A stretch of 3,083 bases of DNA from a plasmid. A model generated the notes under the pieces. It was not told where the DNA came from. It ran no database searches and saw only the letters and a list, made by a program, of their open reading frames with translations. A program made the position numbers and the translations under genes. Shown one piece after another: positions 1 through 3,083 of the stretch. Location of the stretch: the NCBI RefSeq assembly GCF_054482595.1, contig NZ_JBTHVH010000002.1, one strand, 5' to 3'. How positions within the stretch are numbered: position 1 is the first letter of the stretch; each line of letters opens with the position of its first letter.

Positions 1-426
1 CTCTTCGCTCTCCGTCTGATTTCGTTTGCAATTCTGTTATTTACTCTAATGGTGATAACCTTAGTCCTCTGCCGTACTTCTGAACCACTACGCTTATTTT
101 TAGCCATCGCAATGACTCTCCATTTTGCACGTTCTGGGTGTCGGGGCCTGCCCTGACAGGAGGTATTCTCATGCAAGCGAATGTATTCGCGGTATGACGA
201 ATACACATCCTGTCCCGTTTTTCGCTACAACTTTTCGACAAAAATAAAATACCGCGTCGTAACCTGGTATTTCTGATACAAAAAAACGATGCTTCATTCA
301 ATATTATTTACACAGATTTTAAAAGTTATTTCTTGTTATTTAATAAATAACGCAAAATTAATTGATGCTTTTGTTCTTTGTCGTTTGTTGATTATTGAGT
401 AAATAAAGATTGTGTTTTCCTGATTA

Positions 427-438: not shown

Positions 439-1010
439 CCTGTTAGTGATACGGAGTGCATCAGAGAACAGGAAGCAGGAGATCAAGATAGTAGCATGTG
501 CATAAAATACAAACCCGTGAGTTATTGATATCGCGTTTATATATTAAAAATATAACTTAACATTGCTCTTAATATTTATTTTGCCCTCGCAATGGGTGCA
601 TTAATCCCCGTGCAGCGCTCCGCCAGCTGCTGACGGCCTCGACATGCAACCGTCAATGCGATAAAAGATCGGGGTGCGTTTCCGGCAACAACTAACCATA
701 GGGATGGTTTGCGTGCCGACAAACGCCGGAAACGCGCCTCAAATCCACCAAGCCGCCACGGTTCCGGCAGCGCCTTGAGCGCAACCGGAAACCGACTGGG
801 GAGAACCCCAGACCCCCACCGCTGCAACATCATCGGTCTGCGACCGCCTACCAACCGAGCGACTGCCTGTACCGTGCAAACGGGCTTTGCAGGGGCTGGC
901 GCGGTTCCTGGCGACCTGAAAGCCCCTGGTTAGGGGTATCGGCGCGCCTGGCCTCCTGAAACCCTCTGTAAGCGTTTTTCGCGCCTTCCATGCCCTGGGG
1001 GGCATTTAAA
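439..1010 (+). ncRNA. ColE1-family pre-primer RNA II (ends approximate)
   Basis: ORF-free GC-rich stretch of about 570 nt between the -10 at 427-432 and the G6 run (997-1002) plus A-rich transition (TTTAAAACCC, about 1005-1014). This is the pBR322 geometry (RNA II about 555 nt; G6 then GGAAAAACGCC at the RNA/DNA switch). The six-frame ORFs here are Arg/Pro-rich with no ribosome-binding site. Confidence 0.5.
441..549 (-). ncRNA. Predicted antisense RNA I (copy-number control); position inferred from the ColE1 paradigm only
   Basis: In ColE1 replicons RNA I is antisense to the first ~110 nt of RNA II. I could not identify its promoter or its three stem-loops with confidence, so the coordinates are placed by analogy, not by sequence match. 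Confidence 0.2.
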
Positions 1011-1015
1011 ACCCG
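997..1015 (+). other. ColE1-type origin core: G6 run and A-rich RNA-to-DNA transition
   Basis: CCCTGGGGGGCATTTAAAACCC resembles pBR322 TCAGGGGGGCGGAGCCTATGGAAAAACGCC, the G-run and A-run that flank the RNase H processing site. Comparison is from memory of pBR322. Confidence 0.45.
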
Positions 1016-1059
1016 TTTCGTGCGTCTGAGAGCTTCTGAGCGCGTTTGAAGGGCTATCT

Positions 1060-1215
1060 GGCGACTCATCCCTGAAAGAAAAACAACGGGATCACCGACA
1101 ACATGCGAGAGATGACACCGCTCGCCGCAGCCCTAGCGACCGAACGTAGTGAGCGAGTGGGCGAGGAAGCGGAAGAGAACTGGAAGGTACATTTGGCTCT
1201 TACGCACTTCCGTAA
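1060..1215 (+). other. Ori-distal conserved segment with primosome assembly site (n'-pas / ssi-like)
   Basis: TCATCCCTGA...GATGACACCGCTCGCCGCAGCC...GTGAGCGAG...GAGGAAGCGGAAGAG...CTCTTACGCAC parallels pBR322/pUC TTATCCCCTGA...GATACCGCTCGCCGCAGCC...GTGAGCGAGGAAGCGGAAGAG...CTCCTTACGCAT. The GAAGCGG heptamer (1166-1172) is, as I remember it, the conserved PriA/n' recognition motif. Confidence 0.6.
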
Positions 1216-1278
1216 AGAACTAAGAAGAGGGTATCGCGGAAGCCGCGAAAAATGGGGATCCAATTTTCAGATCATGTG

Positions 1279-1369
1279 AGACGGTCTATCAGACGTCATC
1301 AGACCGTCTATCAAAAAACACGTTGATTTTGATAGACCGCGAATCTAAAGTTGAATCTTGTCTATCAAA
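1279..1369. repeat. Iteron/operator cluster, consensus AGAC(C/G)GTCTATCA, three direct copies and one inverted copy
   Basis: AGACGGTCTATCA at 1279-1291; AGACCGTCTATCA at 1301-1313; GTCTATCA at 1362-1369; inverted TGATAGACCG at 1331-1340; a degenerate copy AGACGTCATCA at 1291-1301. The first two copies are 22 bp apart and each contains the 9-bp palindrome AGAC-N-GTCT. The cluster sits immediately upstream of the winged-helix gene. Confidence 0.65.
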
Positions 1370-1382
1370 AAAAGGTTTAATT

Positions 1383-1913
1383 ATGATAAACGGTCGATAC
1401 AAAACTAACCCTTTTTTGGAAGGTATGATAGTGCCCGTCAAGGGTAAACAAGTCAGACTTTCCCGTCTAGGTCGTGATGAAAACATACTGGTTAATCAGA
1501 ACACGGGAGAGGTTCAAGGCACCCATGTAACAACATATAAACGGGTTGATGGTGAGCAGTTTGTAAAACTATTCACTGCAAATATCGCGTTAACCTTTGA
1601 TTTGTCAGCTCAAGGAATAAAAGCATTTAACGTTTTGATGTGGGCAATACAAAAGCAGTCAGTATCAAAAGACGAAGTTTATTTAGATACTCACACAAGA
1701 GAGGAGTTTCTTGCTATTTATAATGATAAAGATAAACCAATTAAATTAAGTCAGCCAACATTTGCTAGAGGATTAGCTGAACTTACAAAAGCTCAAATTA
1801 TAGCTAAAACCATACGTCAAGGAGTGTATTGGATAAATCCAAATTTTGCATTCAACGGTGATAGAATCGCGTTTACAACTCTTATTGAAAGGCAAGGTAA
1901 TAGTGAAAAATAA
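1383..1913 (+). CDS. Small winged-helix DNA-binding protein, putative iteron-binding replication/maintenance protein (RepL-like; assignment tentative)
   Basis: Same frame as track ORF 1323-1913. ATG 1383 has AAGG 7 nt upstream; alternative starts are ATG 1425 and GTG 1431 (GGAAGG 7 nt upstream). Stop TAA at 1911-1913. The C-terminus has a helix-turn-helix plus beta-wing signature (QPTFARGLAELTKAQIIAKTIRQGVYWINPNFAFNGDR) and the N-half has a GEV...FVK pattern I recall from RepL. Direct repeats upstream fit an autoregulated iteron-binding protein. Confidence 0.65.
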   Translation: MINGRYKTNPFLEGMIVPVKGKQVRLSRLGRDENILVNQNTGEVQGTHVTTYKRVDGEQFVKLFTANIALTFDLSAQGIKAFNVLMWAIQKQSVSKDEVYLDTHTREEFLAIYNDKDKPIKLSQPTFARGLAELTKAQIIAKTIRQGVYWINPNFAFNGDRIAFTTLIERQGNSEK

Positions 1914-1926
1914 CAGGGTAAAAACA

Positions 1927-2715
1927 ATGAGAAAAAAGAATATGTTTCCGCCAGGATCTTTGAGTATAAAATTAAATAAACCTTTAACTAAATATGAAAT
2001 AATTGAGATATTGTCAGAATACCTCTCGATGTTAGAAATAACTTTTAGGATAAAAGAATTCCGGCTTTTCTCTTATTTGGAATGCGTGCTTAATGGAGAA
2101 AAGCAGGCTATATACCATAAAGATAATAACACAATCGTGTCTGGATTTTTACTTGATTCAATGAGGAGTACAAACAACAGAAAAATCAATAAGATACTGT
2201 TAGGCGGTGATGATTTTGATGCCATGGAAAAAATCGATGACATGTTAAATATGAAAGCAGAATCCAATCCGTATGAATATTTTAAGAGTTTTTTATCACT
2301 AGTTCCTGCTAATATTGCATATGATCTCATCAGGAAAACTGAAGAGTTAATCGAACTTGAGAGAGTGGAAAGGATAAAAGAAAAAATCGAATTGCGTGAA
2401 AAAAAGCTAGAAAAAGATAAAAACATATTAAAGGTTATTTATAACAATAAGATTGCTGAGTATTCATGTACTTTTGATTATTTTAGATCTGTATATTTGT
2501 CTAGCTCTGGTTTTTTATCTTTAGAAAAACAAAAGGCTAAATATTTTCTTGCGGAAGGGTTGGGTTCACTATTGAAGGATTATGTTGGTAAAAGGTTGGT
2601 AAGATTATCAATTAAAGGCGATGATGGTAAAGTCTCCATAGTCGAAATATATGATGAAAATGGTAGATTTTTATTTAAGACAAAACCTCTAAATAAATCA
2701 CAGAGTAATCTTTAA
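1927..2715 (+). CDS. Hypothetical protein (262 aa), AT-rich, with a highly charged E/K-rich central helix; function unknown
   Basis: ATG 1927 lies 14 nt after the upstream stop, with AGGG 8-9 nt upstream. The track ORF start at 1846 would overlap the upstream gene out of frame and is unlikely. Stop TAA at 2713-2715. Residues ~134-169 (nt 2326-2433, DLIRKTEELIELERVERIKEKIELREKKLEKDKN) look like a charged helix or coiled coil. No Walker, HEPN, PD-(D/E)xK or polymerase motifs seen by eye. Confidence 0.75.
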   Translation: MRKKNMFPPGSLSIKLNKPLTKYEIIEILSEYLSMLEITFRIKEFRLFSYLECVLNGEKQAIYHKDNNTIVSGFLLDSMRSTNNRKINKILLGGDDFDAMEKIDDMLNMKAESNPYEYFKSFLSLVPANIAYDLIRKTEELIELERVERIKEKIELREKKLEKDKNILKVIYNNKIAEYSCTFDYFRSVYLSSSGFLSLEKQKAKYFLAEGLGSLLKDYVGKRLVRLSIKGDDGKVSIVEIYDENGRFLFKTKPLNKSQSNL

Positions 2716-2723
2716 TATGCTTC

Positions 2724-2756
2724 AGCCGATATACCAAATAAGACAGGATATCGGCT
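2724..2756. terminator. Intergenic hairpin between convergent genes (candidate bidirectional terminator)
   Basis: Perfect 9-bp inverted repeat AGCCGATAT (2724-2732) / ATATCGGCT (2748-2756) with a 15-nt loop, in the 46-bp gap between the stops at 2715 (+) and 2762 (-). The loop is long and there is no clean U-tract, so it is a weak intrinsic terminator. Confidence 0.3.
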
Positions 2757-2761
2757 AATAT

Positions 2762-3083
2762 TTATCTGTCGAATAAGTTAGAGCCTGGGTATTTATTTTT
2801 GTGCTCTCTTTTTATTATTTTTATTTCCTCTATTATTAAATCCATCTCTTTATAAATATTTGAAATTTTCTGTGTTATCTCTTTCATTTCAGTACAGAGT
2901 GAAATTATTTTATGCATCACCTCTAGGTACTCTTTATCATTCGGACTCATCCCTTTATCAAATAATTTTTTCTGCATCCGACCAAGTTGTATTAATTCAT
3001 CTAGATATCTAGAAGGCACGCGCTGTTTTATTTCATTATTTAAACTTACTGTCCTTATATACTCTGAGATTGTCAGCCCTTCG
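2762..3083 (-). CDS. Hypothetical protein, 5'-partial (frame open to the window edge), AT-rich; function unknown
   Basis: Track ORF 2762-3019 begins at a GTG with no ribosome-binding site. The same frame has no stop for 21 more codons to position 3083 (…EGLTISEYIRTVSLNNEIKQR-VPSRYLDEL…), so the true start probably lies beyond the window. Stop TAA (plus-strand TTA 2762-2764). Convergent with the 1927-2715 gene. Confidence 0.5.
   Translation of the reverse strand, partial: EGLTISEYIRTVSLNNEIKQRVPSRYLDELIQLGRMQKKLFDKGMSPNDKEYLEVMHKIISLCTEMKEITQKISNIYKEMDLIIEEIKIIKREHKNKYPGSNLFDR

What the first reader, a model, noticed from the sequence alone, without database searches (positions are those of the whole stretch)
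1927..2715. 262-aa orphan protein with an extremely charged central helix and no recognisable catalytic motif
By eye I find no P-loop, HEPN Rx4-6H, nucleotidyltransferase GS...DxD, PD-(D/E)xK or polymerase signature. The only oddities are a GGDDFDAMEKIDD acidic patch at about nt 2200-2240 and the ~36-residue E/K/R-rich segment at nt 2326-2433, which suggests a single alpha-helix or coiled-coil spacer between an N-terminal and a C-terminal domain. It may be a new fold or a highly diverged effector.
Basis: seen in the sequence. Interest (0 to 1): 0.6.

Follow-up and report, generated by a model that had tools for sequence, protein, structure and literature searches.

The report
Unknown partner gene of plasmid RepL
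The 262-residue ORF is a real, conserved gene of unknown function that always sits directly behind a RepL-type winged-helix gene on tiny E. coli plasmids and on ROD21-like genomic islands, and no known protein family or solved structure resembles it.

Summary
The window is a complete 3,083-bp circular E. coli plasmid of the Col(MG828) type. It carries repL, the ORF in question and a relaxosome accessory gene, mobA.

The ORF at 1927-2715 is real. It has dN/dS of 0.17-0.26 and is probably co-transcribed with repL.

It is not a strict orphan. It belongs to a small, unnamed family found only in Enterobacterales. By gene order and size this family includes SEN1991 of the Salmonella island ROD21. 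In all 17 loci with readable upstream DNA, the gene lies -14 to +27 nt downstream of a RepL-family gene. This holds even where one RepL type has replaced another.

No Pfam, NCBIfam, PADLOC, PHROG or PDB sequence match exists for any member. AlphaFold (pLDDT 86) gives three parts:
- a 52-residue charged helix;

The "acidic patch" is not conserved.

Only 7 of 177 plasmids with this RepL type carry the gene, so it is not essential for replication. My best reading is a non-enzymatic, dispensable accessory of the RepL module. The function remains unproven.

The parts
1927..2715 (+). ORF-X coding sequence (262 aa; an alternative GTG start at 1903 is used by RefSeq, WP_139244382.1, 'hypothetical protein')
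   Evidence: dN/dS 0.17-0.26; homologues
1948..2307 (+). N-terminal alpha/beta domain (residues ~8-127). It is the best conserved part: PGSLxIKL...K22...E31...E37...EF...K59. Modelled alone it gives pTM 0.78.
2203..2241 (+). 'Acidic patch' GGDDFDAMEKIDD (residues 93-105), a variable, low-confidence loop/helix region that is not conserved
2308..2463 (+). Long charged helix (residues 128-179). Its position and charge are conserved; its sequence and length (50-62 aa) are not.
2473..2679 (+). Basic C-terminal alpha/beta domain (residues ~183-251; net charge +2 to +5 in 11 of 12 full-length members, 0 in P0003). Invariant residues are R226, S228, K230, K235, E240 and Y242.
1383..1913 (+). repL (176 aa, short-type RepL winged-helix protein), the first gene of the likely operon. 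Its stop lies 13 nt before the ORF-X ATG.
   Evidence: RefSeq annotation; Pfam RepL E=6e-7; junction
1284..1367 (.). Four exact GTCTATCA repeats (three direct, one inverted) just upstream of repL, presumed RepL iterons or operator
   Evidence: 0.09 expected by chance
2724..2756 (.). Hairpin between the convergent ORF-X and mobA genes, a possible two-way terminator
   Evidence: dG -14.3 kcal/mol, z -2.6; not picked up by the simple terminator scan
1208..2771 (+). Low-GC cassette (iterons + repL + ORF-X + hairpin). Related plasmids with the same backbone carry a different cassette here; some of those cassettes lack ORF-X.

Best explanation
ORF-X encodes a cytoplasmic protein that is probably not an enzyme. 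It is the second gene of a two-gene unit headed by a RepL-family winged-helix DNA-binding protein. It has two small alpha/beta domains held apart by a stiff, charged helix of about 50 residues. The N-terminal domain is near-neutral or acidic in most members and strongly conserved. The C-terminal domain is basic.

I propose that it is a dispensable accessory of the RepL module. In this view it is a bridging or adaptor protein that acts at or near the RepL-DNA complex. It would tune the establishment, copy number or maintenance of the extrachromosomal element, rather than catalyse a reaction.

Shown here: the gene is real; the family exists; the position behind RepL is invariant; the gene is dispensable for RepL-type replicons; the three-part predicted structure; the absence of known relatives.

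Inferred only: co-transcription with repL, any physical link to RepL, DNA or host factors, and the direction of any effect on replication.
For: Position behind RepL.
- In every locus with readable upstream DNA, the homologue starts -14 to +27 nt after a RepL-family gene. Six junctions were measured and Shine-Dalgarno-like purine runs are visible in them by eye. Seven further species loci show the same order.
- The consensus scan found no sigma-70-like promoter site on the + strand between repL and ORF-X.

The pairing survives exchange of the RepL gene.
- L006 and L012 have ORF-X copies that are 83% identical but RepL proteins that are only 15% identical (short type versus long type).
- The DNA similarity between these loci breaks about 18 nt before the ORF-X start.

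The unit moves as a block.
- Iterons, repL and ORF-X together show 72% DNA identity over window 904-2687 with a plasmid that has a different mobilisation gene.
- In the backbone shared with plasmids that lack ORF-X, the replaced cassette is 1208-2771.

Selection and decay.
- Purifying selection: dN/dS 0.17-0.26.
- About 11 of the 18 representatives of 50%-identity clusters are fragments or frameshifted. The E. coli island copy has an internal stop. This fits a function needed mainly when the element is not integrated.

Protein features.
- No hydrophobic segment long enough for a membrane span, and a basic C-terminal domain with invariant R226, S228, K230 and K235.
- Confident three-part model.
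- No enzyme-family hit in any library.
Against: - Only 7 of 177 plasmid records with this RepL type carry ORF-X. RepL relatives at 69% identity (L016) and roughly 50% identity (L014) occur without it, L014 on a complete 2.5-kb plasmid. It therefore cannot be required for replication.
- A RepL of a different type sits in front of a nearly identical ORF-X. This argues against a tight, co-evolving protein-protein interface.
- In ROD21, deleting the long-type RepL gene (SEN1990) changed neither island copy number nor maintenance. The authors consider it a transcription regulator (PMC10655114).
- No interaction, DNA binding or phenotype has been tested.
- The structural model rests on only 18-19 sequences.
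Confidence: 0.4

Rival explanations
1. ORF-X is a cargo or 'conflict' gene (defence, anti-defence, exclusion or a toxin-like effector). The upstream RepL-like winged-helix protein is simply its transcriptional regulator.
For: - Deleting SEN1990 gave no replication phenotype. [quoted passage not shown]
- ORF-X is optional for RepL plasmids.
- ROD21-like islands are rich in defence cargo: AAA ATPase plus HNH, DUF4238, a reverse transcriptase, an OLD-family protein.
- Frequent pseudogenes are typical of costly genes.
Against: - No credible PADLOC hit for any of 7 members tested; the single listed match is PprRE at E=0.026, 11.9 bits, for one member.
- No conserved His, Asp or Cys set and no nuclease, NTPase or transmembrane feature.
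- In the islands the gene lies in the conserved backbone next to DUF4756 and H-NS, not in the variable cargo region.
- The short-type RepL occurs on many 2.2-4.2-kb plasmids of varied hosts, where I saw no other replication gene under the match; full gene content was checked for only a few.
Confidence: 0.3
2. ORF-X is a DNA-binding structural or maintenance protein that works on its own. It could be a nucleoid-associated or KfrA-like scaffold, or a copy-number or handcuffing factor. Its link to repL would then reflect common descent of the operon only.
For: - Basic C-terminal domain with invariant Arg and Lys on beta strands, and an overall pI of 7.6-9.3.
- A long spacer helix.
- Island neighbours are an H-NS paralogue and DUF4756.
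Against: - No HTH, ribbon-helix-helix or other DNA-binding family was detected.
- The helix is far shorter than in KfrA-type scaffolds (my own knowledge).
- No partition NTPase or centromere-like repeats lie near it; the only repeats are those upstream of repL.
Confidence: 0.15
3. The ORF is a chance open frame in AT-rich DNA, or a decaying remnant with no function on this plasmid.
For: - The ORF has 30% GC, so long open frames arise easily.
- This copy carries R41 where 11 of 12 full-length homologues have Gly.
Against: - dN/dS of 0.17-0.26 across copies that are 58-90% identical.
- The frame is intact in all 9 E. coli plasmid copies found among complete genomes.
- Full-length homologues at 25-36% identity share 26 invariant residues.
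- The AlphaFold model is confident.
Confidence: 0.02

Closest known systems
SEN1991 of the Salmonella Enteritidis island ROD21 and its counterparts in the ROD21-like (EARL) genomic islands of Enterobacterales (uncharacterised)
   Same: - Gene order: RepL-like (SEN1990, 735 bp), then a 792-bp ORF (SEN1991), then a 480-bp ORF the size of the DUF4756 gene (SEN1992), then H-NS (SEN1993) (PMC3198454).
- Sizes and order match the island loci that I showed to hold ORF-X homologues.
- Full-length sequence homology at 34-36% identity.
- AFDB family hits in Salmonella Enteritidis.
   Different: - The window copy is on a 3-kb plasmid behind the short plasmid-type RepL, not the long island type.
- It has a shorter, more hydrophobic helix (54 versus 61 residues) and a different linker region.
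- I did not have the SEN1991 sequence itself, so that equivalence rests on gene order and size.
Two-gene 'origin binder plus helper' replication modules, for example phage lambda O-P (my own knowledge)
   Same: A DNA-binding initiator gene is followed immediately by a second gene in the same operon. Recombination exchanges one partner at the gene junction.
   Different: - No sequence or fold similarity to lambda P, DnaC-type loaders or any replication protein.
- ORF-X is dispensable for the replicon type.
- No helicase recruitment has been shown.
Phage P1 kilA-repL operon (my own knowledge)
   Same: A RepL-family gene shares an operon with a gene of about 260 codons whose role is not replication itself.
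   Different: kilA lies upstream of repL, not downstream. No KilA-N domain was found in ORF-X.
PepSY / NTF2 / cystatin-like small alpha+beta domains
   Different: - The scores are below what is usually taken as homology.
- No Pfam PepSY hit.
- ORF-X shows no hydrophobic segment long enough for a signal peptide or membrane anchor and so looks cytoplasmic, whereas PepSY domains are typically extracytoplasmic (my own knowledge).

Membership tests
SEN1991-like family (unnamed, uncharacterised; Enterobacterales plasmids and ROD21-like islands) | Full-length sequence homology | tested here: met
   phmmer E=1e-31 to P0007 (residues 7-252), 4e-20 to P0011 and 2e-11 to P0017. A profile search adds copies from Pectobacterium, Brenneria and Klebsiella. 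Seven species loci.
SEN1991-like family | Position immediately downstream of a RepL-family winged-helix gene | tested here: met
   Window gap of 13 nt; -14 to +27 nt in six measured loci; all seven genome loci. The only exception is a truncated remnant flanked by IS elements.
SEN1991-like family | Identity with SEN1991 itself | tested here: inconclusive
   Only gene order and sizes from PMC3198454, plus AFDB hits in S. Enteritidis.
ER/K single alpha-helix (SAH) domain | Long helix almost free of hydrophobic residues, enriched in i/i+4 opposite-charge pairs | tested here: not met
   In the window copy the longest hydrophobic-free run is 5 residues and charge-pair enrichment is z=1.5. Island homologues have runs of 15-18 residues with z 3.7-3.9, so they are SAH-like only in their core.
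Canonical heptad coiled coil | a/d heptad positions filled by hydrophobic residues, with 3.5-residue periodicity | tested here: inconclusive
   Best-register a/d occupancy is 0.22-0.41 against 0.16-0.26 elsewhere, with no 3.5 peak. My own crude measure; no dedicated predictor and no oligomer model were available.
PepSY/NTF2-like fold (C-terminal domain) | Significant structural superposition | tested here: inconclusive
Known anti-phage defence proteins (PADLOC-DB 2.0) | Match to any defence-system model | tested here: not met
   No credible hits for 7 family members. One hit at E=0.026 and 11.9 bits was judged noise.
Known replication helpers (lambda P, DnaC/IstB-type loaders, DnaD/DnaB-like, KilA-N) | Sequence or fold similarity | tested here: not met
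Known replication helpers | Binding to the initiator and to the host helicase or primase | not testable with these tools
   Needs two-hybrid or pull-down experiments, or a multimer model with error estimates.

The most novel reading that the evidence does not exclude
ORF-X founds a protein family with a previously unseen N-terminal fold. It would be the dedicated co-factor of RepL-type winged-helix initiators. Playing a lambda-P-like role, it would link the initiator-origin complex to a host replisome component, or control when an excised or newly transferred element replicates. That would explain how ROD21-like islands and these mini-plasmids establish themselves.
Probability: 0.15. Interest if true: 0.7.

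Novelty: new variant of a known kind. Interest (0 to 1): 0.45.

Why it matters
RepL-type replicons are widespread. I found 177 plasmid records from Escherichia, Bacteroides, Bartonella, Zymomonas and others. As far as I know, how they work is poorly understood.

ROD21-like islands contribute to Salmonella and Klebsiella pathogen biology, and most of their backbone genes have no known function (PMC10655114, PMC10763509).

This analysis gives the SEN1990/SEN1991 pair a comparative frame. The second gene is conserved, under selection and always tied to a RepL-family gene, yet it is optional. The 3-kb plasmid is therefore a very small, tractable system: three genes, with natural relatives that lack ORF-X. 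It could be used to find out what this backbone gene does.

If the predicted N-terminal domain is correct, it may also be a new fold.

Tried and rejected
Library searches with no significant hit:
- Pfam on the protein, on each of 18 family members, and on the C-terminal domain alone.
- NCBIfam, PADLOC and PHROGs on the window protein, plus PADLOC and PHROGs on six homologues.
- PDB sequences with the single protein and with the family profile.

Structure searches:
- Foldseek against AFDB50: only the protein's own family.

Other tests:
- Internal duplication of the two domains: hhalign probability 0.1%, rejected.
- Rfam on the whole plasmid: only a sub-threshold U7 match inside the ORF, judged noise.
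- Heptad and ER/K analyses of the helix: neither is clean for this copy.
- Literature search by protein accession: nothing found.
- The MOBQ4 plasmid paper was read and is not relevant.

Not done:
- The viral-contig and first genome-contig scans failed because the alignment was too divergent. The genome scan was repeated with a tighter alignment; the viral scan was not.
- I considered modelling a fused RepL-ORF-X chain. I rejected this because the tool returns no inter-chain error estimate, so the result could not have been interpreted.

Full report
**What the window is.** The 3,083 bases are a whole circular plasmid. They match E. coli pLH10-b-1-j (NZ_CP100540.1, 3,083 bp, Col(MG828) replicon type) over their full length at 99.9% identity, rotated by 1,325 bases. 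RefSeq annotates three genes.
- repL lies at window 1383-1913.
- A 'hypothetical protein' lies at 1903-2715.
- A 142-residue MobA lies on the minus strand and runs across the window ends (2762-3083 plus 1-107). It passes the NCBIfam MobA cut-off, 91.4 against 80 bits.

No relaxase gene is annotated in the record. The plasmid has two compositional parts. A segment around 600-1200 has 60% GC. A low-GC block holds repL (36%) and the ORF (30%).

**Checking the observation.**
- The ORF is as described: ATG at 1927, 262 codons, stop at 2713-2715. RefSeq's GTG at 1903 adds eight codons. Homologues and the annotation of two sister plasmids favour the ATG.
- Residues 134-169 carry 22 charged residues out of 36. 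The GGDDFDAMEKIDD patch is residues 93-105.
- No catalytic or other family signature was found in Pfam, NCBIfam, PADLOC, PHROGs or PDB sequences, with the single protein or with family profiles.
- The gene is real. Between copies 58-90% identical, dN/dS is 0.17-0.26, similar to repL next door.
- All nine copies in 5,426 complete E. coli genomes sit on 2.9-3.9-kb plasmids and are annotated as ordinary protein-coding genes.

**Not an orphan.**
- A search of 5.8 billion proteins found five close clusters, all from small E. coli plasmids.
- An exhaustive search of 1.8 billion cluster representatives found 18 relatives. Three were full-length at 30-36% identity. A profile search added Pectobacterium, Brenneria and Klebsiella.
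- A scan of one genome for each of 100,044 species found seven loci. Six are in Enterobacterales: Dickeya, Affinibrenneria, Escherichia, Citrobacter, Pluralibacter and Brenneria. The seventh is a 3.8-kb contig binned as Bacillota.
- Every source calls these proteins 'hypothetical'.

**Where the chromosomal copies sit.** They lie in islands next to tRNA genes. The islands carry a P4-type integrase, DUF6387, AlpA, an H-NS paralogue, DUF4756 and a MobA/MobL (MobQ-type) relaxase. This matches the published backbone of the Enterobacteriaceae-associated ROD21-like (EARL) islands (PMC10763509; PMC6035254).

In ROD21 the gene sizes and order are as follows (PMC3198454).

| Gene | Length | Product |
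|---|---|---|
| SEN1990 | 735 bp | wHTH, annotated 'RepL' |
| SEN1991 | 792 bp | hypothetical |
| SEN1992 | 480 bp | hypothetical |
| SEN1993 | 405 bp | H-NS |

These reproduce the RepL, ORF-X, DUF4756, H-NS order of the loci I examined. SEN1991 is therefore very probably the ROD21 member of this family. This is an inference from gene order and size; I could not align the sequence.

**The key regularity.**
- In all 17 loci with readable upstream DNA, the homologue begins -14 to +27 nt after the stop of a RepL-family gene. Shine-Dalgarno-like purine runs are visible in the printed junctions. The consensus scan found no promoter-like site on the + strand between the two genes in the window.
- The single exception is a C-terminally truncated remnant between dctPQM and an IS element.
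- Two RepL types precede it. One is the short plasmid type of the window (Pfam RepL E=6e-7). The other is a long, 244-residue island type (HTH_36 E=1e-4, RepL E=2e-3; named RepL by RefSeq).
- The Klebsiella oxytoca/Pluralibacter island and the K. michiganensis island have ORF-X copies that are 83% identical. Their RepL proteins are only 15% identical. The DNA similarity breaks about 18 nt before the ORF-X start. So the RepL gene was exchanged and ORF-X was kept.

**Modularity on the plasmids.**
- Iterons plus repL plus ORF-X show 72% DNA identity over window 904-2687 with a 2,920-bp plasmid that carries ddp1 instead of mobA.
- Plasmids sharing the window's backbone (2-1207 and 2772-3083) carry a different cassette with repL alone.
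- Upstream of repL are four exact GTCTATCA repeats, where 0.09 are expected by chance.

**Dispensability.**
- The short RepL type occurs in 177 plasmid records from many genera. Many are 2.2-4.2-kb plasmids on which I saw no other replication gene under the match. Only seven of the 177 carry ORF-X.
- A RepL 69% identical to the window's is followed by an unrelated 94-codon ORF. ORF-X therefore cannot be required for replication of this replicon type.
- In the islands the gene often decays. About 11 of the 18 cluster representatives are fragments or frameshifted. The E. coli island copy has an internal stop.
- In ROD21, deleting the RepL-like SEN1990 did not alter island copy number or the amount of excised island. 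SEN1991 mRNA rose slightly but not significantly. The authors favour a regulatory role for SEN1990, while noting that replication after transfer was not tested (PMC10655114).

**Structure.** AlphaFold2 with an 18-sequence alignment gave mean pLDDT 86 and pTM 0.59.
- N-terminal domain: helix 22-40 packed on strands 44-64, small helices, and strand 123-127.
- Helix: a single helix spanning residues 128-179.
- C-terminal domain: residues 183-251, mixed alpha and beta.

The N-terminal domain modelled alone gave pLDDT 84 and pTM 0.78.

| Search | Result |
|---|---|
| Foldseek against AFDB50 | Only the protein's own family, in Citrobacter, Salmonella and Klebsiella |

The weak PepSY/NTF2-like matches therefore probably belong to the C-terminal domain or the helix. 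The two domains are not detectable duplicates of each other.

Twenty-six residues are invariant in 12 full-length members. Apart from the start Met they include P9, G10, S11, K15, K22, E31, E37, F45, K59, R226, S228, K230, K235, E240 and Y242. There is no conserved His, Asp or Cys set. The C-terminal domain is basic in 11 of 12 full-length members (net charge +2 to +5; 0 in P0003). There is no membrane-spanning segment.

The acidic patch lies in the least conserved, lowest-confidence stretch. The nearest database copy has Lys where the window has Glu.

The helix keeps its place and charge but not its sequence or length, which ranges from 50 to 62 residues.
- In island homologues it has a 15-18-residue ER/K-like core with enriched i/i+3,4 charge pairs (z 3.7-3.9).
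- In the window copy, hydrophobic residues recur every 3-4 positions. Neither the single-helix test nor the heptad test is clean.

**Interpretation.** The evidence supports a non-enzymatic protein made of two binding domains and a spacer, functionally tied to a RepL-family gene but optional.

My preferred reading (0.4) is a dispensable accessory of the RepL module. It would affect establishment, copy number or maintenance of the extrachromosomal form. This fits four things: the operon position; the movement of iterons, repL and ORF-X as a block; the backbone location in islands; and decay in integrated copies.

The main rival (0.3) is that the RepL-like protein merely regulates ORF-X, which would be a cargo or conflict gene. 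The ROD21 deletion data and the gene's rarity on plasmids favour this. The lack of any defence signature and the backbone position count against it.

An independent DNA-binding or maintenance role (0.15) is also possible. A spurious ORF is excluded in general (0.02).

The exchange of RepL types in front of a nearly unchanged ORF-X argues against a tightly co-evolved contact with RepL. This weakens a strict lambda O-P analogy.

**Novelty and score.**
- The gene is already in databases as 'hypothetical', and SEN1991 is listed in the ROD21 papers I read only as a hypothetical protein or as the gene downstream of SEN1990.
- Three findings are, as far as I could find, not stated in the papers I read: the invariant RepL linkage across two RepL types, the plasmid-island relationship, and the absence of any sequence or structural relative.
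- I rate it a new variant of a known kind: an initiator gene followed by an accessory gene, with an unrelated accessory protein.
- Interest is 0.45. It is a well-defined, tractable unknown rather than a demonstrated new mechanism.

Noticed in passing
window 747-1208: This 60%-GC segment is shared at about 90% identity with 951 plasmid records. They include roughly 1.5-kb E. coli plasmids whose only sizeable annotated gene encodes a 158-residue HTH protein. Where I inspected context, the segment lies beside a winged-helix/RepL-type gene, and that gene differs between plasmids. It looks like the conserved core of the Col(MG828) type, combined with swappable initiator cassettes. Whether it is an origin, an oriT or both was not resolved. 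Rfam finds no RNAI-like RNA there.
   Followed up: partly
window 1284-1367: Four exact copies of GTCTATCA (three direct, one inverted) lie just upstream of repL, where 0.09 are expected by chance. They are likely RepL iterons or an operator. A promoter-like site at 1358-1387 overlaps the last copy.
   Followed up: partly
window 2047-2049 (codon 41) and 2242-2244 (codon 106): The window copy differs from NZ_CP100540.1 at G41R and K106E. Gly41 is conserved in 11 of 12 full-length homologues, so this copy may be slightly impaired, or the base may be a sequencing difference.
   Followed up: no
window 2617-2697 (residues 231-257): The C-terminal hairpin GKVSIVEIYDENGRFLF resembles one YD/RHS-type repeat unit. 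A 1,525-residue protein (P0022) matched this stretch four times (E=2e-4). This is probably a local structural-motif resemblance only.
   Followed up: no
window 2762-3083 plus 1-107, minus strand: The MobA relaxosome accessory protein (142 aa, above the NCBIfam cut-off) runs across the window ends. No relaxase gene is annotated on the plasmid, so any mobilisation would need a relaxase supplied in trans.
   Followed up: partly
window 2724-2756: A hairpin (dG -14.3 kcal/mol, z -2.6) lies between the convergent ORF-X and mobA genes. It is a possible two-way terminator that the simple terminator scan missed because of its 10-nt loop.
   Followed up: partly
L006 6359-7072 and L009 8175-8889: Repeated units of about 140 bp upstream of the island RepL genes are conserved between islands that carry different RepL types. 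They may be an island origin or a regulatory repeat region.
   Followed up: no
L024 5320-5970: This is the only family member found without a RepL gene upstream. It is a 216-residue truncated remnant lying between a dctPQM transporter operon and an IS element.
   Followed up: partly
L003 (NZ_OL790696.1): A 4.8-Mb E. coli record is filed in the plasmid database as 'plasmid unnamed'. It is evidently a chromosome, and it carries the island copy of the family with an internal stop.
   Followed up: no
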